This document shows, piece by piece, positions 6,997 through 22,743 of a stretch of 64,000 nucleotides of DNA; the stretch's first letter is position 1, and every line of letters begins with the position of its first letter. Source of the DNA: a virus. The notes under the pieces are model-generated. The model searched no databases. It had not been told where the DNA came from and was given only the letters and a program-made list of their open reading frames with translations. The translations under genes and the position numbers were made by a program. Location of the stretch: positions 6,141-70,140 of IMG/VR virus record IMGVR_UViG_3300021356_000012; one strand, written 5' to 3'.

Positions 6997-7299
6997 ATGG
7001 CCGATTATGGTTTAAAAATATGGACCGCAGCTGGATATGTATCGTTTGATTCCAGATATATGCCATCCTATGTAAAAGTGGTTACGTCCGGAACGACTAC
7101 TGTTAGCGGTAACGGCACTAAAACCATATCCGTTCCAGAAGGATACACTTATCTTTATGTTAATGGTCCATCCGGTCCATATGAGTATCCCTTTGAATAC
7201 ACCAGAAAGAATTTCTCTGGAGGTAAGGCGTACGCATTTGAGCTAGAAAATAATCTTCCAACCACTGAATCGTTCGGTTACGTTTGTATTGTGCTATAG
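6997..7299 (+). CDS. Small tail-associated protein (N-terminal YGL motif)
   Basis: MADYGLKIW...FDS start, typical of small genes following J-like tail-tip genes. Confidence 0.5.
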   Translation: MADYGLKIWTAAGYVSFDSRYMPSYVKVVTSGTTTVSGNGTKTISVPEGYTYLYVNGPSGPYEYPFEYTRKNFSGGKAYAFELENNLPTTESFGYVCIVL

Positions 7300-7308
7300 G
7301 AGAATATC

Positions 7309-8184
7309 ATGTCGGATTATGGATTACAGGTAACAAATCAATCAGGTCGCGTTTTGTTCGATAGTCGTGAAGCGGGCCGTGGTACTTTTCAATACTCAAA
7401 GGGAACTATCTCGCCTGGCCAATCGCTAACTACCCTTATATCAGATTTGGTATTAATTAATATTGATAAGCCAAGTTCGGGAAGTCATAGATTTAGACTG
7501 GCAGGAACGCGTGTCGCCTCAGGTAATACTCTTACTTGGACTTTTAATTACACTTTCGCCACAGTTAATAACCACCCTATTAACTATGTTATTCTGAGAG
7601 ACGCGGCGCAGGCTACAACTTTTGGTGACTATGGTTTACAATGTAATGACCGTGAAGGAACATATACTGGTCCAGTTACTTTTGATAGTCGCATGTTCAC
7701 ATCAACTGAAGGGGAAATTTCACTCGACCCAAATGATGTTTACATAGGAAGATTCGGACATGGTCAGAGTATATCCAGTTTCAGACAAATCAATGGCGTG
7801 ACCATGACTGGATGGAACGGTCCAGATGGATTGGATTACTATAACGCAGGTATGTTAGAATACACTTCAGTATCGAGCTATGTAAGAGAATTTAGTATTG
7901 TTTGGGACAGTGGGACAAATATAGGTAATACTTATCAAGAAATATATAGTCGGCAAACAGGGTATTATGGTAATCCACCCTTTTCAACGATTTATGCATC
8001 TATTATAACAGTATCAACTTATGCAAACTCAGCTGCACCAAGCCCAGGCGGAGTATATTCCTTTTCCGAGGTTCACTCGGCAGGACAGGGATTTGAAACT
8101 ACATATTACCCGTCGGCACTACAACCACTGTATATTGGTAGACCCAACCCTAACTTAGGTTTATATGAACCAACAAATACTTAA
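7309..8184 (+). CDS. Tail-associated protein with two YGL...FDSR repeats
   Basis: MSDYGLQVTN...FDSR and internal DYGLQCND...FDSR; AGGAG Shine-Dalgarno (SD) upstream. Confidence 0.5.
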   Translation: MSDYGLQVTNQSGRVLFDSREAGRGTFQYSKGTISPGQSLTTLISDLVLINIDKPSSGSHRFRLAGTRVASGNTLTWTFNYTFATVNNHPINYVILRDAAQATTFGDYGLQCNDREGTYTGPVTFDSRMFTSTEGEISLDPNDVYIGRFGHGQSISSFRQINGVTMTGWNGPDGLDYYNAGMLEYTSVSSYVREFSIVWDSGTNIGNTYQEIYSRQTGYYGNPPFSTIYASIITVSTYANSAAPSPGGVYSFSEVHSAGQGFETTYYPSALQPLYIGRPNPNLGLYEPTNT

Positions 8185-8217: not shown

Positions 8218-8691
8218 ATGCACCCTAAAATCGCCTTAACTAATCAGAATGGCGTAATTGACAGAACTGATATGGATAGCGGTCGCTGGCCAGAAGATGG
8301 AGAATGGCTTGATGGTTGGCGCATTCAAAGAATCTATGACCTAGAAGGTCTTGAAGTTAGCGAATACATCTCAACTCGCGTATGGTCAGACGACGCATAT
8401 GCGTTTGTCCCTGTCCCTCGCAGACCAAATCCAATCGCAGATTGGGACTGGTCCACTGAACAGTGGGTATGGGATTCTGAGGTTATTCTCAACGAGATTA
8501 GAACTGAACGTAACCGTATTCTTATGCAAAGTGACTGGGCATTAATGCCAGACTCACCTTTGTCAGATGAGCAGAAAGAAGAGATGAGGGCCTATCGTAA
8601 GGCTCTTAGAGACTTCCCTTCAACCCTTGATATGACTCAAGTAATGAGTCTACAGGATGTAGAGGATTGGCCAGTACACCCTGCTCTATAA
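8218..8691 (+). CDS. Tail fibre assembly chaperone
   Basis: C-terminal IRTERNRIL..SDW..MPDSPL...YRKALRDFP...WP motif of phage tail assembly chaperones. Confidence 0.8.
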   Translation: MHPKIALTNQNGVIDRTDMDSGRWPEDGEWLDGWRIQRIYDLEGLEVSEYISTRVWSDDAYAFVPVPRRPNPIADWDWSTEQWVWDSEVILNEIRTERNRILMQSDWALMPDSPLSDEQKEEMRAYRKALRDFPSTLDMTQVMSLQDVEDWPVHPAL

Positions 8692-8693
8692 AA

Positions 8694-8701
8694 TATAAAT
8701 A
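8694..8701 (+). promoter_or_regulatory. T4-type late promoter TATAAATA upstream of the giant repeat gene
   Basis: Exact consensus. Confidence 0.8.
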
Positions 8702-8805
8702 GGAGTATTGATTGGAGATGCGCAGATAGTGGTTTTCTGCGCACTAATTTATTATAAATAAAACCATCGTAAACCCTTTTTCATTCACTATAGAGAGCGA
8801 TAATT

Positions 8806-11800
8806 GTGTCAGCATCGAGCATTCCACTAAAAATCAAAAATTCGAATGGTGACCTACAGGAATTCACTCCGGCGGAAGAGAACTATCTTGCGTTCGCAGT
8901 GGGACAAGCATTGGCGTCTGCAGCGTCCAATGATGTCGGTAATATAAGTTTAACTGGTAACGTGAACATTGGTTCTTTCGTTGACACCTTCTATAATGAG
9001 GTCACCGGAACTCACCCAGCTTCACAAATAACTTCATCTACTACAACTACTACACTAACTCAGGTGGGTGGTCCAGCAGATGAATCCGGTGCAAACTTTG
9101 TACGCCCTGTAGGATACTACGACGGAACTAACCCTGGCTTCTACGAAATGGTAGACCCAGACGTAACCGCGTTAGCCAATCGTGTTCTGAGTAATCTTGC
9201 ACAGAATGATTACGTAGGAACTTTTAAACTAGCATCTTCCAGCCCAGGCGCTGATTACACATTGTTCATAGGAAATGTGTTTCAGGATACCCGTGGGGAT
9301 GGAACATCAACTTCTTACAACATTTATCTACGTAACAATATGTCTGCGATTGCGGCAGTTCGTCCAGTTGCGACTCGTTACGACGTTAATGGAGACTTCG
9401 ACGGTTTCCAAGAGATGAGTGATGCACAAATCCAATACACTATTGGTCAGCGCATCAAGACTCTACGTGCGACTTCAGGTAACATTGGTTCATACCAGTT
9501 GCGTTCTTCAACGCAAGGTGTACCTACTGCCCCAGGCACTTGGAAGTCCGTAGGCTCTGCAATCAACACTACTCGTGAAATTGCAGACCAGTCATATGCT
9601 CGTACTCGTAACTCTGCATATGTACGTACTCGTGTTTCTTCATACACTCGTGACCGTACCTCTACATACGCCCGAGTTTCTACTCGTACCAGTACTCGCG
9701 ACTTTGCAGGTAACTACGTAGGTAACTATACTCGCGATTTCACAGGTAACTACTCACGCAACTTTGCGGGTGAGTACACAGGTGACTTCGTAGGTAACTA
9801 TTCTCGCACTCGTAACAGTGCATATTCACGTGACCGTGTGACTAACTTCTCACGTACTTTTACTGGCGAATACATCCTAAACCGTCAGTCAACGTATACT
9901 CGTGTACGTCTACAGGCGTTCACTGGTGGATTTACTGGTTACTATTCTCGTGCACGTGTCTCTGTCTATACTCGTAACAGAATAACAGATTTCGCAGGAT
10001 ACTACACTCGTAACCGTGTATCCACATATGCCCGTGGCCGTGTTTCTTCTTACGCAGGTACTTACTCACGCAACCGCGTTAGTGCCTATGCAGGAACTTA
10101 CACACGTACTCGTGTATCATCTTACTCAGGAACATACGCTCGTACTCGTAACTCTGCATATGCAGGGACTTACACGCGTACACGCGTTTCTGCGTACTCA
10201 GGTACTTACTCACGCACACGCGTTTCTGCATATGCTGCAGATTATACTCGCGTTCGTGCGACTAACTACACTCGCGACCGTGTAACTAACTTTGCAGGTG
10301 TTTACTCACGCGCACGTGTATCGACATATGTTCGCAACCGTGTTACAAACTTTGCGGGTAACTTTATTGGTAACTATGCTCGTAACTTCGTAGGAAACTA
10401 TGCTCGCAACTTCGTAGGAAACTACGCACGTGCGTTCGCTGGTGACTACGTAGGTAATTACGCTCGTACTTCTACTCGCACATCAACTCGTACTCGTTAC
10501 TCGGCTTATGCACGTACTTCAACACGTACTCGTGTATCTGCTTACACTCGCGACCGTGTTACAAACTTTGCGGGTAACTTTATTGGTAACTATGCACGTG
10601 ATTTCGTTGGAAACTTTGTAGGTAACTACGCACGTAACTTTGCTGGGGACTTTGCAGGTAACTATGTTGGTAACTATGCAAGAGACTTCGTAGGCGATTT
10701 CGTAGGTAACTATGCACGTAACTTTGTTGGTAACTACGGCGGTAACTTCGTCGGTAACTATGCAACTACATTTACTGGTGACTTCGTAGGTAACTACGCT
10801 CGCGGTTTCGTTGGAAACTATGCACGTAACTTTGTCGGTAACTACACTAGAAACTTTGCCGGTAACTTCGTAGGTAACTACTCTCGTGGCTTCGCAGGAA
10901 ACTATGGCGGTAACTTCGTTGGTGATTATGCACGTACTCGTGCGACCAACTATTCGCGTAACCGTGTTTCTGCGTACAGCCGTACTCGTGCAACCAATTA
11001 CACCCGTACTCGTAACTCTGCGTACACTCGTACGTCTACTCGTACTCGTTACAGTGCATATGCACGTACTTCGACTCGTACGTCAACTCGTACTCTAAGT
11101 TACACTCGTACATTGTACTACACTGGTAACTACGCTCGTGCGTTTACTCGTGATCGTACTCAGACATTTACTGCAACTGGTACCTACACTCGTACTTTAT
11201 ACTACGCGGGTGACTTTACTGGAAACTACACCCGTAATGTTACTTACACTGGTAACTATACCCGTACATTGACTTACACTGGTGACTTCGTAGGTAACTA
11301 CACTCGTGGTGTCACTTATACTGGTAACTACACTCGTGGTGGCCCAGTAACATATACTGGCGACTATATTCGTTACCAGAACCCATATGACACCGTAAAC
11401 TATTATATCGGTAACTATATCGGCGGTGGTGCTACCTACACTGGTAACTTTGTTGGTAACTACACCAGCGCATATGCAGGCGCAGGTGGTGGTCGAGTAT
11501 CTTCATATACTCGATATGTTTATCCAACTGGTCTACAGTATTATACTCGTTCGTTCGGTACAACCACCTATTATACGCGTACATCGACTCGTACGTCAAC
11601 TCGTAACTCAACTGGTGCAGGCACGGATTATACTGGTGCATACACTCGTTCGGCAGCGTTGTACTACACTGGTAACTATATCGGTACTGTTACTGAGACT
11701 TACACTCGTAACCGCGCTGCGACACTAGACTACACTCGTACTCGTGTCACTAACTACACTGCAACAGGTACGTATACTCGTGGCCGTGGGGCGACACTAG

Positions 11801-13506
11801 ACTACACTCGTAACAGTACTCGTACTTCAACCAATACTGGTTACTACACACGTACATTGTACTATGTCGGCAACTTCGTAGGTAACTATGCGCGTAACTA
11901 CGCCGCAGACTACACCCGTACTGGTTACTACACACGTACTGGATACTACGCAGGTGACTTCGTAGGAAACTATGCGCGTGGATTTGCAGGAAACTTCGTA
12001 GGAAACTATGGTCGTTCATTCGTTGGCGATTACGTAGGTAACTTTGTTGGTAACTATGCGCGTACATTCGTTGGTGATTACGTAGGTAACTTTGTTGGTA
12101 ACTACGCACGTACTTCAACACGCACATCGACTCGCACACGTTACTCAGCATATGCCCGTACACGCGTAACTAACTACGCTGGCGCATACTCACGTACTCG
12201 TACATCAGCCTACGCTCGTACTCGTAACTCGGCTTACTCGCGTACTCGTGTAACTAACTACGTTGGTGATTTCACCCGTACGTCAACTCGTACTTCGACT
12301 CGTAACCGTTACTCTGCATACGCAAGAACTCGTGTAACTAACTACGTTGGTGATTTCACTCGAACATCTACTCGTACGTCAACTCGTACACGTGGTTCTG
12401 CTTACGCACGTACTCGTGCAACCAATTATGTTGGTGATTTCACCAGAGACCGCGTAACTAACTTCGCAGGTAACTTCGTAGGTAACTACAGCCGTAACTT
12501 CGCAGGTGACTTTGTAGGAAACTACGCTCGCGCATTTGCAGGTGACTTCGCTGGTAACTTCGTTGGTGAGTACACTCGTACGTCTACTCGTACTCGTTAC
12601 AGTGCATACGCAAGAACTCGTGTATCTGCATACAGCCGTACTCGTGGTTCCGCATATACTCGTGACCGTGTAACTAACTTTGCAGGTGACTTCGCAGGAA
12701 ACTATGCACGTACATTCACTGGAAACTACTCACGCAACTTTGCGGGTAACTTCATCGGTGATTATGTCGGTGACTTCACTGGTAACTACGTAGGCAACTA
12801 CAACCGTGGTTTCGTCGGTGAGTACACTGGCGCATATACTCGTCAATTCGGTGGTAACTATGTGGGTAACTACAGCCGCGGATTTGTTGGTGAGTACACT
12901 GGTGCATATTCTCGTAACTTCGGTGGAAACTACGTAGGTAACTACACTCGTGGATTCGTTGGAGAATACGCAGGTACTTACAACCGTACATTCGCAGGTG
13001 AGTACACTCGTGGGTTCACTGGTAACTATGCAAGACAGTTTGCAGGCGACTTCGCTGGTAACTACTCTCGCACGTTCGCTGGAGAATACGCAGGAACTTA
13101 TAACCGTGACTTCGTAGGTGACTTTACTGGTAACTATGCACGTACGTTTGCAGGTAATTACATCCGCAACCGTGTCTCTGCATACGCTGGCAACTTCATC
13201 GGAAACTACACTCGTGACTTCATCGGTAACTACTCACGTAACTCAACCGATGTATTCTCACGTACTCGCGTCTCTGCATACGCAAGACTACGTACCTCTG
13301 CTTACTCTGCAGATTATGGTAGAACTCGCGTATCAACTTACGCAGGTAACTATACTGGCGACTACGCCCGAGACTTCACTGGTAACTACTCACGTGATTT
13401 CACTGGTAACTACAGTCGCGCATTTGTCGGTAACTATGTTGGTGCAACTCTCCAGCCTACTTACCAGACGGTTGAAGGTTATACTCTATACGTAAGGATT
13501 GCATAA
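8806..13506 (+). CDS. Giant low-complexity repeat protein (1566 aa), probable virion fibre: globular N-terminal ~263 aa, ~1280-aa mirror-arranged tetrapeptide-periodic repeat region, short C-terminal strand
   Basis: Long ORF under a late promoter; repeats of RTRVSAY/RTST and GNFVGNYAR types. Confidence 0.85.
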   Translation: MSASSIPLKIKNSNGDLQEFTPAEENYLAFAVGQALASAASNDVGNISLTGNVNIGSFVDTFYNEVTGTHPASQITSSTTTTTLTQVGGPADESGANFVRPVGYYDGTNPGFYEMVDPDVTALANRVLSNLAQNDYVGTFKLASSSPGADYTLFIGNVFQDTRGDGTSTSYNIYLRNNMSAIAAVRPVATRYDVNGDFDGFQEMSDAQIQYTIGQRIKTLRATSGNIGSYQLRSSTQGVPTAPGTWKSVGSAINTTREIADQSYARTRNSAYVRTRVSSYTRDRTSTYARVSTRTSTRDFAGNYVGNYTRDFTGNYSRNFAGEYTGDFVGNYSRTRNSAYSRDRVTNFSRTFTGEYILNRQSTYTRVRLQAFTGGFTGYYSRARVSVYTRNRITDFAGYYTRNRVSTYARGRVSSYAGTYSRNRVSAYAGTYTRTRVSSYSGTYARTRNSAYAGTYTRTRVSAYSGTYSRTRVSAYAADYTRVRATNYTRDRVTNFAGVYSRARVSTYVRNRVTNFAGNFIGNYARNFVGNYARNFVGNYARAFAGDYVGNYARTSTRTSTRTRYSAYARTSTRTRVSAYTRDRVTNFAGNFIGNYARDFVGNFVGNYARNFAGDFAGNYVGNYARDFVGDFVGNYARNFVGNYGGNFVGNYATTFTGDFVGNYARGFVGNYARNFVGNYTRNFAGNFVGNYSRGFAGNYGGNFVGDYARTRATNYSRNRVSAYSRTRATNYTRTRNSAYTRTSTRTRYSAYARTSTRTSTRTLSYTRTLYYTGNYARAFTRDRTQTFTATGTYTRTLYYAGDFTGNYTRNVTYTGNYTRTLTYTGDFVGNYTRGVTYTGNYTRGGPVTYTGDYIRYQNPYDTVNYYIGNYIGGGATYTGNFVGNYTSAYAGAGGGRVSSYTRYVYPTGLQYYTRSFGTTTYYTRTSTRTSTRNSTGAGTDYTGAYTRSAALYYTGNYIGTVTETYTRNRAATLDYTRTRVTNYTATGTYTRGRGATLDYTRNSTRTSTNTGYYTRTLYYVGNFVGNYARNYAADYTRTGYYTRTGYYAGDFVGNYARGFAGNFVGNYGRSFVGDYVGNFVGNYARTFVGDYVGNFVGNYARTSTRTSTRTRYSAYARTRVTNYAGAYSRTRTSAYARTRNSAYSRTRVTNYVGDFTRTSTRTSTRNRYSAYARTRVTNYVGDFTRTSTRTSTRTRGSAYARTRATNYVGDFTRDRVTNFAGNFVGNYSRNFAGDFVGNYARAFAGDFAGNFVGEYTRTSTRTRYSAYARTRVSAYSRTRGSAYTRDRVTNFAGDFAGNYARTFTGNYSRNFAGNFIGDYVGDFTGNYVGNYNRGFVGEYTGAYTRQFGGNYVGNYSRGFVGEYTGAYSRNFGGNYVGNYTRGFVGEYAGTYNRTFAGEYTRGFTGNYARQFAGDFAGNYSRTFAGEYAGTYNRDFVGDFTGNYARTFAGNYIRNRVSAYAGNFIGNYTRDFIGNYSRNSTDVFSRTRVSAYARLRTSAYSADYGRTRVSTYAGNYTGDYARDFTGNYSRDFTGNYSRAFVGNYVGATLQPTYQTVEGYTLYVRIA
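9595..13437 (+). repeat. Imperfect coding repeats with 12-bp (4-codon) periodicity, e.g. ggtaactac/cgtactcgt
   Basis: Directly visible; in frame with 8806..13506. Confidence 0.9.
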
Positions 13507-13565: not shown

Positions 13566-13611
13566 ATACTATATACGATTGACTTGAATTGATTTTTTGG
13601 AGAATGACTTA

Positions 13612-14073
13612 ATGAGTTACAGAAGATGGATGGATAACGCGTTCTGGGAGACAGATGCAAAAGAACAACTAAACTGCATCCTAGAAATGGAAGACGATGT
13701 TGGTCGAGTTACCCGTCAGGTAATGTTATTAAACAGGTTCGATAAGGACGGTAATCCTAACGAACTTTTTGATGAGGTGGTATCATCACTAGGTGAAGAA
13801 ACCATTGACAAAGAAACAACGGACCGTGTTGCTCGAAAAGAAGCCGAGGCCGAAGAAGAAAAACAACGTGACCTTGAACATCGAAAGGCGCGTAAATTAG
13901 AGAAGTTGTTCAACTACAAATTAGAGGCGTTCGAAGTCGATGAGATTAAGAACTCCAAAAACCGTAAGTTGAAGGCAAAACTACGTCGTGCGAAGTCACG
14001 TATCGAAGTAGACTTATACTCTATTATGATTCTTCAAGAAGTCTTAGAGGCAGAGGCAAATGGCGCAGAGTAA
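13612..14073 (+). CDS. Hypothetical charged helical protein (possible chaperone/partner of the repeat protein)
   Basis: ORF track 13597..14073; ATG at 13612 preferred because a GGAGA SD precedes it. Confidence 0.65.
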   Translation: MSYRRWMDNAFWETDAKEQLNCILEMEDDVGRVTRQVMLLNRFDKDGNPNELFDEVVSSLGEETIDKETTDRVARKEAEAEEEKQRDLEHRKARKLEKLFNYKLEAFEVDEIKNSKNRKLKAKLRRAKSRIEVDLYSIMILQEVLEAEANGAE

Positions 14074-14797
14074 AGGTTTCGTTATTGTCGCATCACAGAA
14101 ACATAACTTTTATCTGTATGCGGTTAACTTGGCAGAATCAATTCGAGACTTCTATGAACCAGAAGACGAATGTAAAATCTGTCTAGTAACAGAAGAAAGA
14201 TTTTTAGACGACCGTGGTCGTGAAGTTGCAGATGATATTATCTTTTGTGACGACCACTATCGTGCAAAATTATGGGGCATGGCTAAGTCACCTTATGACC
14301 TAACCATGTACATTGACGCTGACATGGAGTGTGAACACGAAGACATCGTTAAAGTGTGGGATGAGATGAAAGACCACGATGTGGTATTCTCCGCACTAAC
14401 CGATGACCGTGATTACATCTATGCAGAACGTGACTTCGATACACCGGAAGGTAAGGCGAAGTTTACATTATGTGGAGGTGTCTGTCTATATGATATGTCC
14501 AAACCAATTGTACGTGAATTCATGCAAGACTGGTGGGACTTAACGTATAAACAGATGAATGACACTTGGTGGCCCAATGGGTATGCGGACAGTCTCAAGT
14601 CTTGGGACCAGTTCTCACTCTGGTGGTTGACTGAGAAAGAAGAAAAGTATAAGGATCTCAAAGTCGGTATCTTTGATGACGACTTGAGATGGAACTATTA
14701 CAACGCCCTTAACTGGGCAATAACAAAACCTGAATCAGGGCCAGTGATTTTAAGACACTTCTCTGCAGGTTTGAATAAGGACACACCAATCGTATGA
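14060..14797 (+). CDS. Glycosyltransferase (GT8/GT-A-like)
   Basis: RAKLWG..KSPYD.TMYIDAD (DxD), GGV.LY, WDQFSL, WN motif and terminal H. Confidence 0.7.
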   Translation: MAQSKGFVIVASQKHNFYLYAVNLAESIRDFYEPEDECKICLVTEERFLDDRGREVADDIIFCDDHYRAKLWGMAKSPYDLTMYIDADMECEHEDIVKVWDEMKDHDVVFSALTDDRDYIYAERDFDTPEGKAKFTLCGGVCLYDMSKPIVREFMQDWWDLTYKQMNDTWWPNGYADSLKSWDQFSLWWLTEKEEKYKDLKVGIFDDDLRWNYYNALNWAITKPESGPVILRHFSAGLNKDTPIV

Positions 14798-15504
14798 CAC
14801 AGGTAAATGACCAATATCTGAAGCATGTCGAAGTCAATAATCCAGAACTTCTGGCAATTCTTGATGAGTATGCTCAATTGCACAAGTGGAGAGGTTTCCA
14901 AGATAACGTCTACTGTACTGCAATGGAACACGCACGTCAACGTCCTTATTACGTTGGCGAAAACTACATGAATGAGGTTGTATCTCAGGGTGCGGGACAT
15001 GACGGTTTTCCTGAGCACCTACTAGGTTACAATCTAAAGTTGGCAGACAAGTCACACGCAATCTTTGAAAAAGATGCGGACCCAGTATTTAAACGTGACT
15101 TTACTCATCACCTTGCGGACCTAAATGACCGCATGATGAATTTCTTGTCAACCAAGCATAATGCGTTGACTGCAGTATATCCACCAGAAGGTTTCATCTC
15201 GTGGCACAATAATCAGAACGCTCCTGGCTTTAACTTAATTTTCTCTTACTCAGAAGACGGCCAGGGTTACTTCGATTATATCCATCCAGTGACCAAAGAA
15301 GTTGTTCGTTGTCAAGATGAGCCAGGAAAGTGGACATGTAAGGCAGCATACTTCGGTTCATTTGATGAGCCAGAGAAGAGACTATATCACGCAGCCTCTG
15401 CGAATGATGGATGGAGAACTACTGTTTCTTATATCTTTGACTGGACCGAAGAAGGTGAAGCCTTCCGTGAAATGGTCCTAGAAGACATCTCTTCACACGT
15501 TTAA
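14794..15504 (+). CDS. Cupin/2OG-Fe(II) oxygenase-like protein
   Basis: YPPEGFISWHNN...LYHAA...R double-stranded beta-helix pattern; paralog of 38705..39352. Confidence 0.55.
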   Translation: MTQVNDQYLKHVEVNNPELLAILDEYAQLHKWRGFQDNVYCTAMEHARQRPYYVGENYMNEVVSQGAGHDGFPEHLLGYNLKLADKSHAIFEKDADPVFKRDFTHHLADLNDRMMNFLSTKHNALTAVYPPEGFISWHNNQNAPGFNLIFSYSEDGQGYFDYIHPVTKEVVRCQDEPGKWTCKAAYFGSFDEPEKRLYHAASANDGWRTTVSYIFDWTEEGEAFREMVLEDISSHV

Positions 15505-17274: not shown

Positions 17275-20200
17275 ATGTCATTTAGACAGATTAAATCACC
17301 TGCTCTAGCCGATAAGGCGGTCATCAATACCAAACTTGACGAAAGTGCGGTACAAGGACAGAGCACCCTAACGGGAATGACCTCACCGGACCAGTGTTTT
17401 ACGCTGTTGTACGATGTAGGTACAGACTCGTTGAAGAAGATCGCGTCAGACGACTTCTTCGGATCGTTCTCAACTGACGATCTAGTGGAAGGGTCTAACC
17501 TATACTTCACCGATGCACGTGCAAAAACTGCAGTTGCACAAGACATCGCTGATGCGGTAGCGGTAGAAGAAGCTCGCGCACTAGCGGCAGAAGGCGTACT
17601 ACAATCTGCAATCGATGCAGAAGTAGTTCGTGCAACTGCAGCTGAGCAAGCAAACGCTACAGCAATCTCGAATGAGGTTACCCGAGCAACTACTCGTGAA
17701 AATGCAATCGAAACTGCGTACCAATCTGCAGACGCTGCATTGTCACTACGTATTGACAACATCCTTTCAAATACAGATGAAGTTGCACTAAATTCACTTG
17801 CAGAAATCGTTACTGCGTTCGAAGACGCGGATGACGTACTAACTGCATCAACTATCGCAAACTCAAACGCAATTCAGGCAGAGGTTACTCGTGCGACTGC
17901 GGCGGAAGCTGCAAACGCAACTGCAATCGCGAATGAGACTACTCGCGCAACTACCGCAGAAGCAGACCTACAGTCACAAATCAATACTGAAGTAGCTGCT
18001 CGTATCGCAGGCGACAACGCACTAGATACACGTTTGACTACAGAAGAAGGTAATGTAGACAACCTACAATCAGACCTTGCTGATGAGATTTCACGTGCAA
18101 CAGCGGCAGAAGCGGTTCTAACTCAGGACCTTGCAGACGAAGTAACTCGTGCAACAGCGGCAGAAGCTGCGAACGCTCAGTCTATCCAAGATGAAATCAC
18201 TGCACGTGCAGTAGCGGATACTCAAGTCCGTACTGACATGACTGCATTGATTAACTCTGGTGATGCTGCAACTCTTGCAGCTGCAAAGGCAAACGACGAC
18301 CTACTAATCGGTGACGCAACTGTTGATGGTACTGCTAGCAACACGGTAACCGACCGCATCGCAACTGCTAAGGCAGAGGCAATTGCAGACGCAGACGCAT
18401 CTGTAGCGACAGAGCAGGCAGCTCGTGAGGCGGCTGACTCAGACCTACAAGCAGGTCTTGATGCAGAAATTGCACGTGCAACTGCAGCAGAAGGTGTACT
18501 AACTACTGACCTAGCAGCCGAGGTAACTCGTGCAACTGGTGAAGAGTCGCGCATCGAAGCGAAAGTTGACAACATCATCTCTAATACTGACCCAGCTGCG
18601 TTGGATTCATTGACAGAAATTGTCGATGCATTCCAGAGCGTTGATAGTGACATTCAGGCACTTGTCAACTCTAACACAGTTGCAATCAGTAACGAAGCAA
18701 CAACTCGCGCATCTGCAGATACAGTTCTACAGGGTAACATCGACGCAGAGGCCGCAACTCGTGCAGCTGCAGATACTACTCTACAACAGAACATCGACGC
18801 AGAAGAAACTGCACGTATTGCAGGCGATGCGGCAACTCTTGCATCTGCCAAGGCGTACACTGACCAAGAAGCAGATTCTCATCTAGCAGCTGCAATCGCA
18901 CACGCAGACGCACAAGACGCGGCACTAATCGGTGACGCATCTGTTGACGGTACTGCAGGCAACACTGTTACTGCACGTATCGCAACTGCAAAGAGCGAAG
19001 CAAACGCATACACTGACGCAGAAATTGCAGCGGAAGCGGCAACTCGTCAGGCAGATGATGACGCACTATCTCTACGCACCACTTCACTAGAAGGTCGTAT
19101 GGATACTGCAGAAGCAGACATCACTGCAGTAGAAGGTGACTTGGCAACTGAAGTTGCAGCTCGTACTTCGGGTGACGCAACACTTCAGGCAAATATCGAT
19201 GCAGAAGAAACTGCACGTATTGCAGCTGACAACACTCTACAACAAAACATTGACGCCGAAGAGGCACGTGCAGTAGCTGCAGAGGCAGACCTACAAGGTC
19301 AAATCACTGCAGAAGTTACTCGTGCAACTGGCGTTGAAGCAGGACTACGTACTGATACAGATGCAAACACTGTAGGTGTTGCGACTAACGCAACTAACCT
19401 TGCAAACGAAATCACTCGTGCGCAATCAGCAGAGTCTACTCTACAATCTAACATTGATGCAGAAGCAGTAACTCGTGGAAACGCGGATACTACTCTACAA
19501 GCTAACATCGATGCAGAAGTTACTCGTGCAACAGGTGTCGAGGCAGGTCTACGTACCGATATCGACGCAAATACTGCTGCAATTGTTGGTAACGACTCAG
19601 ACATCGCGGCTGAAACTGCGGCTCGTATCGCAGGTGATGCATCACTACAGTCTCAGTTGAATGCAGAGATTACTCGCGCCACTGGCGAAGAGTCACGTAT
19701 CGAAGGACGTTTGGACACTGAGATTGCACGTGCAACTGGTATCGAAGCAGGTCTACGTACTGACGTAGATGCAAACGCAGTAGAAATCGCAGCAGTAGAT
19801 TCAGACCTATCTGATGAAATCGCTCGTGCAACTGCGGCAGAACTTGTACTAACTCAAGACCTAGCGGCAGAGGTAACTCGCGCAACTGGTGTTGAGGCAG
19901 GTTTACGCACTGACGTTGACTCAGTAACTACTCGTGTTGATGCAATTGTCGGTACTTCACCAGAGACTTTAGACACTCTACAAGAAATCGTTGCTGCATT
20001 CGAAGACGCAGACAGTGACCTACAAGCAGTTATCTCTGCAAACTCAGGTCGTTTGACTACTAACGAATCAGACATCGACGCACTAGAAGTTCGCGCAACT
20101 GACCTTGAGTCACGTGCAACTCTAGTAGAAGGTCGTGCAACTGCACTAGAAACTGAGCAGTCTGCTCAAGCAGGTCGCTTGACTGTCAACGAAGGTGACA

Positions 20201-22743
20201 TCGATGACCTAGAAACTAAGGTTGGTACTGCAACTCTACAAACTGTTGCAACTGACCTATCAGCTGCAATCAACGAGATTCACGCAGAACTAGACACTGA
20301 AGCAGGTCACGTCGATACTCTACAATCAGAGATGGACGCTGTTGAAGGTCGCGCTACTGTCCTAGAAGGACGTGCAGACGGTCATGATTCAGACATCGCA
20401 GCTCACAACGTTCGTTTGAACGGTGCAGAGCAGGATATCGATGACCTAGAATCAATCGTCGGTACTGCAACTCTAGCAACTGTTGCAATCACTACTACTG
20501 AAGCTATCAACGAACTACACAGTGAAGTTGATATCAACACTGGTAAGGTTGCTACTCTTGAGTCGGAGATGGACGCAGTTGAACTACGTGCAACTTCACT
20601 AGAGAACCGCATGGCGGGTGTTGACAGTGACCAAGTTGTACAGGACGGTCGTCTAACTGTTAACGAAAGTGACATCGATTCGCTAGAAGCGAAGATGGGT
20701 ACTGGTGCATTCGCAACTGTTTCACAAACTACTGTAGGCGCAATTAACGAACTACACGGTGAAGTAGACGCGGCTGTCGCACGTATCGATGGTCACGATT
20801 CTGACGTAGGTGATCTGCAAGCGCAAATCACTGCGGAAGTTAACCGTGCAACTACTCAAGAAGGTCTAATCCGTAGCGAGTTCGCTACAGAAGACACTGC
20901 GGTCCGTGCAGAATTCGCGGCGGCAGATGCAGTAGTATTGGCGTCAGCAGCGGCAGACGCAACTTCTAAGGCGGATACTGCGGAAGCGAATGCGAAAGTA
21001 TACGCAGACGGTATCGTTGCTGCTGAAGAAACTGCACGTGAGAACGCGGACACGGTACTACAGTCTGCAATCGATGCAGAAGTTACTCGTGCACAGTCTG
21101 CTGAGGCGACATTGTCATCTCGTGCAACTGCACTAGAAACTGAAATGACTGCAACTCAAGCAGGTGCTGGTCTTTCAACTGCAGGTAACTACATCACTCC
21201 AACTGGTACTTCATACCTAGACGCATCTGTCTCTCTAGCAGACGCAGACGCGAAGCTAGACGCTGCTATCGCGGCAGAAGTATCACGTGCATCGGGTGTT
21301 GAGGCAGGTCTACAAACTCAAATCACTAACGAAATCGCAGCTCGCATCGCGGGTGACAGTGATCTTCAGTCACAGATTGATGCAGAAATCGGTCGTGCAA
21401 GTGGTGTTGAGAGTGACCAGGCGGCACTTATCCAAGCGAATGCTGACGCAATCGCGGCGGAAGAAAGTGCACGTCAGGCTGCAGATTCAAATCTACAGTC
21501 ACAAATCGACTTCATTACGTCAAACACTGATTCTGCGGCACTAGACTCGTTGACAGAAATCGTTGCGGCATTCCAGTCTGCAGACGGTACTCTAACTGGT
21601 CTAATCTCTCAGAACCAGACAGACATCGCAACTAACACTGCGGGTCTTGCACAAGAAATCACCGACCGTATTGCAGGCGATAACGCAGTACGTGGTGAGT
21701 TCGCTGCGGCAGATGCGGGTCTACAGACTCAAATCGATGGTAAGGTAAGCAAGTCAGGCGATTCAATGACCGGCGATCTTGCAATGGGTGGAAACAAGGT
21801 TTCTGGTCTTGCAGTCGGTACTGATTCTGCTGACGCAGTTAACGTAGGTCAATTGACTTCAGGTTTGGCTGCACAGCACATTTCACAGTTCAGTACAACT
21901 GACCTTGCTGAAGGTGACAACCTATACTACACTGACGCACGTTCACGCGCTGCATTCTCTGTAACCGACGTAGACGGTGAAGGTAACGTTTCATACGATA
22001 GCTCAACTGGTGTTCTATCAGTATCAACTGGTAAGGCATTCCTAGAGTTAGAAGATGTAAGCGAGTCTTCATTCACTGGACACGAAGGTTTCGTTGCACG
22101 TGTTAAGACTGACGGTTCGGCGATTGAATTCATCGACCCAACTCAGTTGGCATTTAACAACGCACAACGTCAAACTATGAATGGTGACGGTGCACAGACT
22201 ACATTCGCATTGAACTTCTACACGCAAGACCAAAACGCGATTGTATTCGTAGGTGGTGTTATTCAGGATCCGTCCACTCACTACTCTATCGATGCTGCAA
22301 ACCAAACTATCACGTTTAACAGTGCAATCCCTGTAGGTACTCAGGCGGTTGTTATTGCACAGTCAACTAACTCAGTCGGCGTACTAGACCCAGGCTCAGT
22401 TGGCGTTGAAACATTCGCTGACAACATCAAGCCTGCAATACAGGGTGTAGACATTGTAGTTGGTACTTCACCAGCTGTAGTATCTTCATTCAACGCTACT
22501 GTTTCTCGTGCAGCCAAGTTCATCGTAACTGTTGACCTAAACGGCGAACACGAAGTACGCGAGTGTATGGTTATCCATGATGGCACTACTGCATACATAA
22601 ATGAGTACGGTATTGTATTTACTGGTTCATCTCTACTAGGTGATACAGACGTACAAATGAGCGGAGACACTGTCGAGTTAACTTATGAGGCAGTTTCGGC
22701 TGGCGCAGTTGTTAAGGTTGTCAAGACTACTGTAGACGTATAA
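17275..22743 (+). CDS. Very long segmented coiled-coil fibre (1822 aa), possible whisker/fibritin analogue or long tail fibre
   Basis: Ala/Glu/Thr-rich EVTRATAAE repeats, LDSL.EIV.AF nodes, TDDL.EG.NLYFTDAR motifs; lies just upstream of the neck genes. Confidence 0.75.
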   Translation: MSFRQIKSPALADKAVINTKLDESAVQGQSTLTGMTSPDQCFTLLYDVGTDSLKKIASDDFFGSFSTDDLVEGSNLYFTDARAKTAVAQDIADAVAVEEARALAAEGVLQSAIDAEVVRATAAEQANATAISNEVTRATTRENAIETAYQSADAALSLRIDNILSNTDEVALNSLAEIVTAFEDADDVLTASTIANSNAIQAEVTRATAAEAANATAIANETTRATTAEADLQSQINTEVAARIAGDNALDTRLTTEEGNVDNLQSDLADEISRATAAEAVLTQDLADEVTRATAAEAANAQSIQDEITARAVADTQVRTDMTALINSGDAATLAAAKANDDLLIGDATVDGTASNTVTDRIATAKAEAIADADASVATEQAAREAADSDLQAGLDAEIARATAAEGVLTTDLAAEVTRATGEESRIEAKVDNIISNTDPAALDSLTEIVDAFQSVDSDIQALVNSNTVAISNEATTRASADTVLQGNIDAEAATRAAADTTLQQNIDAEETARIAGDAATLASAKAYTDQEADSHLAAAIAHADAQDAALIGDASVDGTAGNTVTARIATAKSEANAYTDAEIAAEAATRQADDDALSLRTTSLEGRMDTAEADITAVEGDLATEVAARTSGDATLQANIDAEETARIAADNTLQQNIDAEEARAVAAEADLQGQITAEVTRATGVEAGLRTDTDANTVGVATNATNLANEITRAQSAESTLQSNIDAEAVTRGNADTTLQANIDAEVTRATGVEAGLRTDIDANTAAIVGNDSDIAAETAARIAGDASLQSQLNAEITRATGEESRIEGRLDTEIARATGIEAGLRTDVDANAVEIAAVDSDLSDEIARATAAELVLTQDLAAEVTRATGVEAGLRTDVDSVTTRVDAIVGTSPETLDTLQEIVAAFEDADSDLQAVISANSGRLTTNESDIDALEVRATDLESRATLVEGRATALETEQSAQAGRLTVNEGDIDDLETKVGTATLQTVATDLSAAINEIHAELDTEAGHVDTLQSEMDAVEGRATVLEGRADGHDSDIAAHNVRLNGAEQDIDDLESIVGTATLATVAITTTEAINELHSEVDINTGKVATLESEMDAVELRATSLENRMAGVDSDQVVQDGRLTVNESDIDSLEAKMGTGAFATVSQTTVGAINELHGEVDAAVARIDGHDSDVGDLQAQITAEVNRATTQEGLIRSEFATEDTAVRAEFAAADAVVLASAAADATSKADTAEANAKVYADGIVAAEETARENADTVLQSAIDAEVTRAQSAEATLSSRATALETEMTATQAGAGLSTAGNYITPTGTSYLDASVSLADADAKLDAAIAAEVSRASGVEAGLQTQITNEIAARIAGDSDLQSQIDAEIGRASGVESDQAALIQANADAIAAEESARQAADSNLQSQIDFITSNTDSAALDSLTEIVAAFQSADGTLTGLISQNQTDIATNTAGLAQEITDRIAGDNAVRGEFAAADAGLQTQIDGKVSKSGDSMTGDLAMGGNKVSGLAVGTDSADAVNVGQLTSGLAAQHISQFSTTDLAEGDNLYYTDARSRAAFSVTDVDGEGNVSYDSSTGVLSVSTGKAFLELEDVSESSFTGHEGFVARVKTDGSAIEFIDPTQLAFNNAQRQTMNGDGAQTTFALNFYTQDQNAIVFVGGVIQDPSTHYSIDAANQTITFNSAIPVGTQAVVIAQSTNSVGVLDPGSVGVETFADNIKPAIQGVDIVVGTSPAVVSSFNATVSRAAKFIVTVDLNGEHEVRECMVIHDGTTAYINEYGIVFTGSSLLGDTDVQMSGDTVELTYEAVSAGAVVKVVKTTVDV

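What the first reader, a model, noticed from the sequence alone, without database searches (positions are those of the whole stretch)
9595..13437. Self-complementary 'palindromic' protein: ~1280 aa of repeats arranged as an exact complementary mirror
Seen in the sequence (manual residue counting from the GTG at 8806): the repeat region alternates two block types on a 4-residue register. Type A is Arg/Thr/Ser-rich (YxRTRVSAY, RTSTRTST) and type B is Gly/Asn/aromatic-rich (FVGNYARNF). Each A block in the N-terminal half faces a B block of matching length in the C-terminal half, and vice versa. Boundary aromatic residues sum to the same value, 1808: 332/1476, 348/1460, 356/1452, 516/1292, 552/1256, 588/1220, 708/1100. 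The outer pair 264/1544 and central tyrosines 766/1042, 772/1036, 794/1014 and 808/1000 fit too. Matched block lengths are about 35/33, 33/35, 15/17, 9/7, 159/161, 37/35, 35/37, 121/119 and 55/53. The axis is about residue 904 (nt ~11515), in a unique Gly/Tyr/Pro segment. The DNA is not an inverted repeat, so the symmetry appears to be maintained at the protein level. Inference: one chain folds back into a giant antiparallel beta-hairpin or ribbon of about 545 residues per strand, roughly 180 nm if extended. Arg would pair with Phe/Tyr/Asp/Asn and bulky residues would face Gly, with the N-terminal domain and last 20 aa forming the base and residues ~810-1000 the tip. Indels would have to be compensated on both arms, as in an RNA stem. 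I do not know of a described fibre with this design.
Basis: partly seen in the sequence, partly recalled or inferred. Interest (0 to 1): 0.93.

Follow-up and report, generated by a model that had tools for sequence, protein, structure and literature searches.

The report
Fold-back phage fibre with mirror-paired arms
A 1566-residue tail-fibre-type protein of a T4-like marine phage has two long repeat arms that match each other in reverse order, and relatives lengthen or shorten both arms together, so the chain most likely runs out, turns and pairs with itself all the way back.

Summary
ORF 8806-13506 (1566 aa) has a 4-residue repeat region (aa 264-1544) in which Arg/Ser/Thr-rich blocks (YxRxRxSx) face Gly/Asn/Phe-rich blocks (FxGNYxRN) under i <-> 1808-i. 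A blind mutual-information scan peaks exactly at S=1808. On a simple rung code, 246 of 319 pairs fit, against at most 148 in 2000 block shuffles. The DNA is not an inverted repeat.

In 11 homologues of 1527-2282 aa, indels in one arm are matched by equal-length indels at the mirror position. Non-repeat globular inserts sit in the return arm only, as bulges.

The repeat type occurs in 545 protein clusters. Of 60 distant complete members I could analyse, 40 show the same mirror order at z>=3.

My best reading is an out-and-back, antiparallel, self-paired fibre shaft. A tail-fibre chaperone gene lies upstream and late-promoter motifs precede the start. No structure supports this yet: AF2 gave pLDDT 27.8. 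Substitution-level covariation is weak. The closest known design is the T4 gp37 needle, but this protein is not a member of that family, having no His. This scan has already noted the same design in at least 53 other genomes.

The parts
8218..8691 (+). Upstream gene: tail-fibre assembly chaperone-like protein (157 aa)
   Evidence: Pfam PF16778 Phage_tail_APC, E 8.1e-16. phrog_4912 tail fiber assembly, E 1.3e-13. A relative lies upstream of the fibre gene in most related loci.
8694..8760 (+). Two TATAAATA motifs (8694-8701, 8753-8760) upstream of the start; T4-type late-promoter consensus (the consensus is recalled)
   Evidence: 11 copies in the window, all on the + strand, against 2.41 expected; 0 of 100 shuffles reach 11.
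8806..13506 (+). Whole ORF, 1566 aa, GTG start, stop included
   Evidence: The same start and the same C-terminal ..TYTLYVR[VIT]A end occur in 24 complete IMG/VR homologues.
8806..9594 (+). N-terminal globular domain, aa 1-263 (alpha/beta; aa 226-263 are not confidently modelled)
   Evidence: AF2 with a 17-row alignment: pLDDT 74.2, pTM 0.72. No convincing fold match: Foldseek finds nothing at E<=0.001, and the best VIA Z is 3.9.
9595..11367 (+). Outgoing (N) arm, aa 264-854, alternating A (YxRxRxSx) and B (FxGNYxRN) blocks
   Evidence: The gapped complement alignment pairs 264-854 with 1544-954 without a gap. Rung table; shuffles.
11368..11664 (+). Tip or turn, aa 855-953 (Gly/Tyr/Thr/Pro-rich, irregular). 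It is the most length-variable part among homologues
   Evidence: Uncompensated indels cluster at aa 855-960 in homologues.
11665..13437 (+). Returning (C) arm, aa 954-1544, block types complementary to the N arm in mirror order
13438..13503 (+). C-terminal 22 aa, non-repeat, with a conserved end motif. It would lie next to the N-terminal domain if the chain folds back (inference)
   Evidence: The end motif L[YW][VL][RK]xx occurs in 96 of 150 listed family representatives that also start with M.
13597..15504 (+). Three downstream genes that travel with the fibre gene: a 158-aa charged helical-looking protein, a 245-aa glycosyltransferase-like protein and a 236-aa protein of unknown function. 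Association only; any role in fibre maturation is inference
   Evidence: Found directly downstream in 24 of 25 loci with a complete fibre ORF. Atlas lead to PF03407-bearing clusters at 0.97. Only weak leads at 0.87 for the third gene. Pfam gave nothing.

Best explanation
The gene encodes a late, tail-fibre-type virion protein of a T4-like marine phage (Kyanoviridae-like).

Proposed layout:
- The N-terminal domain (aa 1-263) is the attachment end.
- The chain runs outward as a repeat arm (aa 264 to about 854).
- It turns in a variable tip of about 100 residues.
- It runs back antiparallel (aa about 954-1544), paired in register i <-> 1808-i. The last 22 residues therefore end beside the N-terminal domain.

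The register is set by two block types on a 4-residue unit. Type A (YxRxRxSx) always lies opposite type B (FxGNYxRN read backwards). This gives rungs Y:Y, R:F, R:G and S:R on one face, and small or polar residues (V/A/T against N/T/D) on the other.

Shaft length is tuned in evolution by adding or deleting whole units (multiples of 4 residues) in both arms at mirror positions. Relatives hang globular domains on the returning arm as bulges.

Shown: the mirror complementarity, the compensated indels, the family-wide pattern and the gene context. Inferred: physical contact, beta conformation, intra-chain pairing, probable trimer (which would give a six-stranded needle), and receptor binding by the tip or the inserted domains.
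For: (1) Single sharp register: the MI peak is at S=1808 with z=6.9. 246 of 319 rungs are on code against a null maximum of 148 in 2000 shuffles. Shifts of 4 or 8 residues destroy it.

(2) There is no DNA inverted repeat, so the pattern is kept at protein level.

(3) Compensated indels from ordinary BLOSUM62 global alignments that know nothing of the mirror:
- L015: +28/+28, +12/+12, +4/+4 at 440/1368, +20/+20 at 516/1292, +16/+16, -44/-44.
- L025: +4/+4, +20/+20 at 442/1366, +20/+20 at 466/1342, +12/+12 at 478/1330, +4/+4.
- L004 +176/+176; L006 +352/+352; L008 +112/+112.
- L018: -32/-32, +4/+4, -12/-12, -30/-30.

(4) Window pairs (i, 1808-i), mapped independently to each homologue, keep one constant sum: 460/497, 430/497, 261/391, 394/448, 378/382, 365/391, 375/384, 363/389, 370/384, 313/447 and 279/468 pairs.

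(5) Cumulative arm offsets are equal in 122 of 180 cells, 32 of them trivially 0/0. Fragments 508-624 and 1184-1300 have equal lengths in 9 of 11 homologues: 117/117 seven times, 129/129 and 137/137.

(6) The axis sits at L+242 (within 4) in 16 of 20 distinct complete proteins of 1527-2282 aa.

(7) In phage C48C1 (3347 aa), N arm 265-1292 pairs with only 13 unpaired residues. The C arm carries five large unpaired non-repeat inserts. The only uncompensated extra length in L025 and L030 is a globular insert.

(8) P0161 (581 aa) pairs gaplessly over 121 rungs. Its otherwise identical relative P0030 lacks one 12-aa unit and shows a 12-aa bulge opposite it.

(9) Family breadth: 545 clusters at E<=1e-3. 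Of 60 analysable complete members, 40 have z>=3 and 21 have z>=5 against a chunk-shuffled return arm.

(10) Context: a chaperone gene upstream, a tail and neck module around it, and late-promoter-like motifs.
Against: - No structural support. AF2 of aa 700-1108 gave pLDDT 27.8, so neither beta structure nor contact is shown.
- Substitution-level covariation is weak. There are 10 double changes that stay on code against 7 that leave it, and 137 single changes off code against 35 on code.
- The block-level correlation alone is not unusual if all registers with short overlap are allowed: 506 of 1000 shuffles reach it.
- Parallel offsets of 812-920 residues give bias-corrected MI of 0.82-0.89 over partial overlaps of 361-469 pairs. 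MI alone therefore does not exclude parallel pairing; only the mirrored indels do.
- One-arm indels exist: L010 with 24 aa and P0030 with 12 aa.
- In the wider family 9 of 60 members have z<2, and 36 of 96 complete members could not be analysed by my start rule.
- L032 shows only patchy pairing.
- The rung code and the scoring matrix were derived from this protein.
- Sequence alone cannot tell pairing within a chain from pairing between chains.
Confidence: 0.7

Rival explanations
1. The same antiparallel A:B pairing holds, but between different chains. The N arm of one subunit pairs with the C arm of another, either in an antiparallel dimer or rod with attachment domains at both ends, or as strand swapping inside an oligomer.
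For: All sequence evidence fits this equally well. Earlier notes of this scan report split versions in which the two arms are separate neighbouring genes (e1-5790867 and e1-5784373; not tested here), so pairing between chains is possible for this repeat type.
Against: The central ~100 residues are irregular, poorly mirror-paired and freely variable in length, as expected for a loop rather than the middle of a continuous duplex. The N- and C-terminal non-repeat ends are both conserved, which fits a common base. A rod with attachment domains at both ends is unusual for a phage fibre (my inference).
Confidence: 0.17
2. The arms do not touch. Each is an independent parallel trimeric beta-helix or solenoid built of octapeptide repeats, as in T4 gp5C or gp12. 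The arms are kept equal in length only because both ends of the chain are anchored at the same place.
For: Both block types have an 8-residue period, like the octapeptide repeat of the gp5 beta-helix (passage in PMC3004832). No structure contradicts it (one search was uninformative).
Against: Equal total length would not require compensation at the exact mirror position. Yet indels at 440, 442, 466, 478 and 516 are matched at 1368, 1366, 1342, 1330 and 1292. It would also not require opposite block types or the 4-residue phase lock, R:F 46 and Y:Y 48 with no R:R.
Confidence: 0.09
3. Chance or artefact: low-complexity repeats that happen to look mirrored, or repeat mis-assembly.
For: The coarse correlation statistic is not significant when all registers are scanned. 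Repeats are prone to assembly collapse, and L010 and P0030 may be such cases.
Against: The fine-scale null gives 0 of 2000. An independent contig carries the same 1566-aa protein at 99% identity in the N-terminal domain (L003). Compensated indels appear in 11 homologues, and the pattern appears in distant members.
Confidence: 0.02

Closest known systems
Needle domain of the phage T4 long-tail-fibre protein gp37 (Bartual et al. 2010, as described in a passage of PMC9659904; iron sites as in a passage of PMC6957217)
   Same: It is a phage fibre in which the chains run towards the tip and back, giving antiparallel strands in a thin needle. It depends on a fibre chaperone. The receptor-binding part lies at the turn and not at the C terminus (this last point is recalled).
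   Different: The gp37 needle is about 15 nm long (150 by 25 A; passage in PMC3004832) and is held by seven iron ions bound by His. The repeat region here has no His at all and has 590 residues per arm. It has a two-type block code and evolves by compensated unit indels. There is no sequence match to any PDB chain at E<=1.
Fold-back antiparallel coiled-coil arms of SMC/Rad50/MukB proteins (recalled, not tested)
   Same: One chain runs out, turns at a hinge and pairs with itself antiparallel over hundreds of residues. Arm lengths must match, so the two halves co-vary in length.
   Different: Those arms are alpha-helical heptad coiled coils in chromosome proteins. Here the period is 4 or 8 residues, rich in Tyr, Arg, Gly and Thr, with no heptads, in a virion fibre.
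Triple-stranded beta-helices with octapeptide repeats (T4 gp5C; passage in PMC3004832)
   Same: An 8-residue sequence period with Gly and small residues at fixed positions, in a phage tail protein.
   Different: gp5C is parallel and intertwined with only local contacts. It has no second arm, no mirror order and no need for compensated indels.
RNA stem-loops (analogy only)
   Same: Self-complementarity in mirror order, bulges, a variable loop and compensatory changes that keep the stem.
   Different: The compensation here is mainly by indels of whole units, not by substitutions: 10 on-code against 7 off-code double changes. The chemistry is unrelated.

Membership tests
T4 gp37-type fibre needle | His-x-His motifs that bind iron along the needle axis | tested here: not met
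   No His in aa 264-1544. The iron and His feature is taken from a passage of PMC6957217.
T4 gp37-type fibre needle | Sequence similarity to gp37 or to any solved fibre | tested here: not met
   phmmer against all PDB chains found 0 hits at E<=1. Pfam and PHROGs found 0 families for the whole protein.
T4 gp37-type fibre needle | Chains run out to the tip and back, giving antiparallel strands | tested here: inconclusive
   Mirror complementarity and compensated indels argue for it. No structural model exists (pLDDT 27.8).
T4 gp37-type fibre needle | Homotrimer | not testable with these tools
Phage tail fibre (generic) | Encoded in the tail or baseplate module next to a fibre assembly chaperone | tested here: met
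   PF16778 / phrog_4912 gene at 8218-8691. Tail, adhesin, neck and sheath-stabiliser genes lie around it. C48C1 has the same order, with annotated 'tail fiber protein' and 'tail assembly chaperone' genes.
Phage tail fibre (generic) | Present in the virion and binds the host | not testable with these tools
   No proteomic or imaging data were found. Searches gave nothing on this family.
Parallel triple beta-helix (gp5C/gp12 type) | Octapeptide repeat | tested here: met
   8-residue periods YxRxRxSx and FxGNYxRN.
Parallel triple beta-helix (gp5C/gp12 type) | Only local, parallel contacts, with no dependence between distant parts of the chain | tested here: not met
   Distant mirror positions gain and lose the same number of residues.

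The most novel reading that the evidence does not exclude
A protein counterpart of a nucleic-acid stem-loop. This would be a sequence-coded, register-specific beta duplex of more than 500 rungs, with Y:Y, R:F, R:G and S:R acting as 'base pairs'. It would evolve by compensatory unit indels, tolerate bulged globular domains on one strand, and let phages tune fibre length from about 120 to about 1030 residues per arm. At 0.33 nm per residue that is roughly 40 to 340 nm (my estimate). It would define a large, undescribed class of virion fibres with at least 545 protein clusters.
Probability: 0.5. Interest if true: 0.92.

Novelty: new variant of a known kind. Interest (0 to 1): 0.8.

Why it matters
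If the arms really pair, this is a fibre whose length and register are written in a simple two-letter block code and changed by paired insertions. That would be a new principle for building very long, thin protein rods.

It would explain how marine T4-like phages vary fibre length and hang receptor-binding domains along a shaft. It would give a natural template for designing long beta ribbons of set length. It would also add a protein family in which long-range contacts can be read from indel compensation alone.

The family is abundant in metagenomes (545 clusters). It has no Pfam or PHROG family, no name beyond 'hypothetical protein' and no solved relative.

Tried and rejected
- DNA-level explanation (ancient inverted duplication read in another frame): rejected. 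There is no reverse-complement peak at or near the sum 23032, and the repeat finder found only one 16-nt pair.

- Block-level correlation as the sole statistic: rejected as too weak. 506 of 1000 shuffles reach it when all registers are scanned. I replaced it with the phase-aware rung count and with indel compensation.

- Mutual information as proof of direction: not sufficient. Parallel offsets reach 0.82-0.89 over partial overlaps.

- Substitution covariation: looked for and found weak. One search used a wrong fixed sum for six homologues; one search corrected this.

- AF2 of the tip fragment aa 700-1108 with 13 rows gave pLDDT 27.8 and is uninformative.

- Complex prediction of aa 508-624 with aa 1184-1300 (alignments A3, A4): verdict 'no answer', score 0.00, controls not run. 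This counts neither for nor against.

- Fold of the N-terminal domain: the model is usable (pLDDT 74.2), but Foldseek against PDB and BFVD found nothing at E<=0.001. VIA-align wide gave a best Z of 3.9 to T4 gp11 over 45 residues, which is too weak to use.

- Pfam on the globular inserts of L025 and C48C1 found no family above threshold. My impression that one of them looks lectin-like is therefore unsupported and dropped.

- Literature: searches found no paper describing this family or a mirror-complementary fibre. 'C48C1' matched only unrelated papers in the search listing. I saw passages only of PMC3004832, PMC6957217, PMC9659904, PMC12143355 and PMC9608196. Supplements were not consulted.

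Sequencing-run and read-laying tools were not used.

- In one search I left out 54 of 150 representatives that did not both start with M and end in the family motif, and 36 of the remaining 96 that lacked my A-type start pattern.

Full report
WHAT IS THERE. The window is a structural-gene stretch of a T4-like phage. Nearly all large ORFs are on the + strand. They include tail, adhesin, neck, sheath-stabiliser and terminase genes. The only related GenBank phage record, C48C1, is classified in Kyanoviridae.

The finding lies in ORF 8806-13506, 1566 aa, with a GTG start. Two TATAAATA motifs lie 45 and 104 nt upstream. The motif occurs 11 times in the window, always on the + strand, against 2.4 expected. 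That this is the T4 late-promoter consensus is my recollection. The gene immediately upstream (8218-8691) is a tail-fibre assembly chaperone by Pfam PF16778 (E 8e-16) and phrog_4912. The big protein itself matches no Pfam or PHROG family and no PDB chain at E<=1.

THE OBSERVATION. Printed in fours from residue 256, the sequence keeps one 4-residue register for most of aa 264-1544. There are two block types:
- Type A, period 8: Y-x-R-x-R-x-S-x, with an STRT variant.
- Type B, period 8: F-x-G-N-Y-x-R-N.

The region has net charge +118 and contains no Lys, His, Cys, Met or Trp.

When the C-terminal half is written backwards under the N-terminal half with i+j=1808, A faces B all along. Three scans agree on that register:
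- Smoothed block type: r=-0.654 at exactly 1808.
- Residue-blind mutual information: 1.099 bits at 1808, z=6.9 among 960 registers.
- Rungs at unit positions 1 and 3: Y:Y 48, R/S:F 55, R/S:Y 7, Y:F 10, F:F 5 of 125; and R:G 67, S:R 31, T:G 15, G:G 6, no R:R of 124.

Shifting by 4 inverts the phase, and shifting by 8 halves the on-code counts. In the less regular stretch aa 761-860 the same register gives 13 aromatic coincidences, the best of 101 registers. The gapped complement alignment extends the ungapped pairing to 854/954.

HOW MUCH IS CHANCE. The coarse statistic is not enough. With 22 blocks, shuffled block orders reach r<=-0.654 at some register with overlap of at least 300 in 506 of 1000 trials. 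At the full-overlap register alone the observed value is z=-2.9, and the lowest of 5000 shuffles is -0.686.

The phase-aware count is decisive. 246 of 319 rungs are on code. Shuffles of whole 8-residue-chunk blocks give mean 108.7, sd 10.8 and a maximum of 148 in 2000. The maximum is also 148 when each of 400 shuffles may choose its best of 129 registers. The code was read off this protein, which inflates the observed count somewhat. The null uses the same code and the same chunks.

The DNA is not an inverted repeat.

THE EVOLUTIONARY TEST. The N-terminal domain retrieved 31 IMG/VR loci. Of these, 24 carry a complete ORF and 7 run off the contig. Lengths are 1062, 1527, 1566, 1575, 1580, 1585, 1639, 1651, 1675, 1786, 1800, 1826, 1911 and 2282 aa, plus 3347 aa in C48C1. 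All end in ..TYTLY[VC]R[VIT]A.

In 16 of 20 distinct complete proteins the mirror minimum lies within 4 of L+242. The first repeat residue therefore still faces residue L-22 whatever the length. The exceptions are C48C1, L010, L025 (a tie) and L032.

Ordinary BLOSUM62 global alignments to the window protein place indels in mirror pairs of identical size:
- L015: +28/+28, +12/+12, +4/+4 (440/1368), +20/+20 (516/1292), +16/+16, -44/-44.
- L025: five pairs, three of them at exactly mirrored positions (442/1366, 466/1342, 478/1330).
- L004: +176 against +156+20.
- L006: +332+20 against +112+240.
- L008: +12+100 against +112.
- L018: -8-24 against -32, +4/+4, -12/-12, -20-10 against -30.

The sums are constant at 1808 while the differences are not (776-928). 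The pairing is therefore antiparallel, not parallel.

Mapped through these alignments, window pairs keep a single constant sum in each homologue, from 378/382 (L018) down to 279/468 (L030). Cumulative offsets of the two arms agree in 122 of 180 sampled cells, 32 of them trivially 0/0. Almost all indels are multiples of 4 residues.

WHAT BREAKS THE SYMMETRY. Two kinds of exception appeared.

First, globular non-repeat inserts. L025 and L030 carry an insert of about 150-190 aa in the returning arm. C48C1 carries five such inserts there. Its N arm 265-1292 pairs with only 13 unpaired residues. None of the inserts has a Pfam family. They behave like bulges on one strand of a stem.

Second, single-unit differences between near-identical proteins. 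L010 lacks 24 aa of one arm relative to L008. P0030 lacks one 12-aa unit relative to the otherwise 100% identical P0161. P0161 pairs gaplessly over 121 rungs while P0030 shows a 12-aa bulge. These may be real polymorphisms or collapsed repeats in assemblies.

The tip (about aa 855-953) varies freely in length.

BREADTH. phmmer with aa 264-1463 against 1.84 billion representatives found 545 clusters at E<=1e-3, 214 at 1e-10 and 79 at 1e-30. Of the 150 listed, 96 start with M and end in the family motif. My start pattern fitted 60 of them. For those, the complement-alignment score was compared with 30 shuffles of the return arm in 8-residue chunks. The median z was 3.65, with 40 at z>=3, 21 at z>=5 and 9 at z<2. 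All 60 scored higher antiparallel than parallel, but the matrix was trained on antiparallel pairs.

Examples: P0003 pairs 198 residues without a gap. P0006 pairs 219 with two 1-residue bulges.

Sources name these proteins at most 'hypothetical protein'.

WHAT IT MOST LIKELY IS. I read it as an out-and-back fibre shaft. The attachment domain and the C-terminal tail sit at the base. The two arms pair antiparallel in a register fixed by the A/B block order, with a variable tip. I put about 0.87 on antiparallel arm-arm pairing of some kind and 0.70 on pairing within one chain. A trimer giving a six-stranded needle is plausible by analogy with phage fibres but untested.

Positions 1 and 3 of each unit would lie on one face, forming a Tyr/Phe/Arg ladder with Gly or Ser opposite Arg. 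Positions 2 and 4 (V/A/T against N/T/D) would lie on the other face (the geometry is inference).

Weak points:
- No structure. AF2 gave pLDDT 27.8.
- Weak substitution covariation: 10 on-code against 7 off-code double changes, and 137 off-code against 35 on-code single changes.
- Sequence cannot separate intra-chain from inter-chain pairing.

COMPARISON WITH WHAT IS KNOWN. The T4 gp37 tip is described as a six-stranded antiparallel needle formed by three chains (passage in PMC9659904). It is about 150 by 25 A (passage in PMC3004832) and has seven His-bound iron ions (passage in PMC6957217). The topology is the same in principle. However, the defining His motifs are absent here and there is no sequence similarity. 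The protein therefore works like that needle but is not a member of the family.

The fibre-class atlas (passages in PMC12143355) mentions the needle domain only in connection with T4 and one other fibre, in the passages I saw. Six literature searches found no description of a mirror-complementary fibre.

Earlier AI notes of this scan report the same design in at least 53 other genomes, with the same closest relative, and also split two-gene versions. I did not test those.

VERDICT. I class it as a new variant of a known kind (phage fibre with out-and-back topology) and rate interest at 0.8.

Noticed in passing
window 13597-15504: Three genes follow the fibre gene and travel with it: they lie directly downstream in 24 of 25 loci with a complete fibre ORF. 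The middle one (14060-14797) has Atlas leads to nucleotide-diphospho-sugar transferase clusters, with PF03407 on 30-51% of members at score 0.97. The third has only weak leads at 0.87 to 2OG-Fe(II)/Asp-Arg hydroxylases. Pfam found nothing. They may be a fibre-modifying cassette.
   Followed up: partly
window 17275-22743: An 1822-aa protein, Ala 19%, Thr 11%, Asp 10%, Glu 8%, with repeats of the AEVTRATAAEA kind and a non-repeat C-terminal part. It looks like a long coiled-coil fibre. Its only match is phrog_13589, of unknown function.
   Followed up: no
window, 11 sites (e.g. 8187, 8694, 8753, 15525, 25929): TATAAATA occurs 11 times, always on the + strand and mostly just upstream of ORFs, against 2.4 expected. 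This is consistent with T4-type late promoters (the consensus is recalled).
   Followed up: partly
L002 (phage C48C1) aa 2020-2150 of the 3347-aa homologue: A stretch of about 66 aa at the end of the first globular insert, together with the start of the following repeats, is present twice in tandem. It is either a real duplication or an assembly artefact.
   Followed up: no
P0002 (1798 aa, ends at its contig end): This homologue has an insert of about 600 aa inside the N-terminal domain. The insert carries precomputed Pfam hits PF14312 (FG-GAP-like repeat) and PF13385 (Laminin_G_3). The attachment domain can therefore also host extra modules.
   Followed up: no
P0003 aa 490-512, 545-566, 818-838 and 871-890: Four copies of a short non-repeat motif (the ..AQGTGxSIVxGEG.. 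type) sit in both arms at mirror positions, so like faces like there instead of A facing B.
   Followed up: no
L010 against L008; P0030 against P0161: Near-identical proteins differ by one-arm indels of 24 aa and 12 aa, which leave a bulge in the partner arm. These are either natural intermediates of compensated length change or collapsed repeats in assemblies.
   Followed up: partly
window 6997-8184: Two upstream ORFs (100 and 291 aa) begin with a similar motif (MxDYGL.. ..FDSR) and match no Pfam or PHROG family. Relatives occur upstream in only some of the related loci.
   Followed up: no
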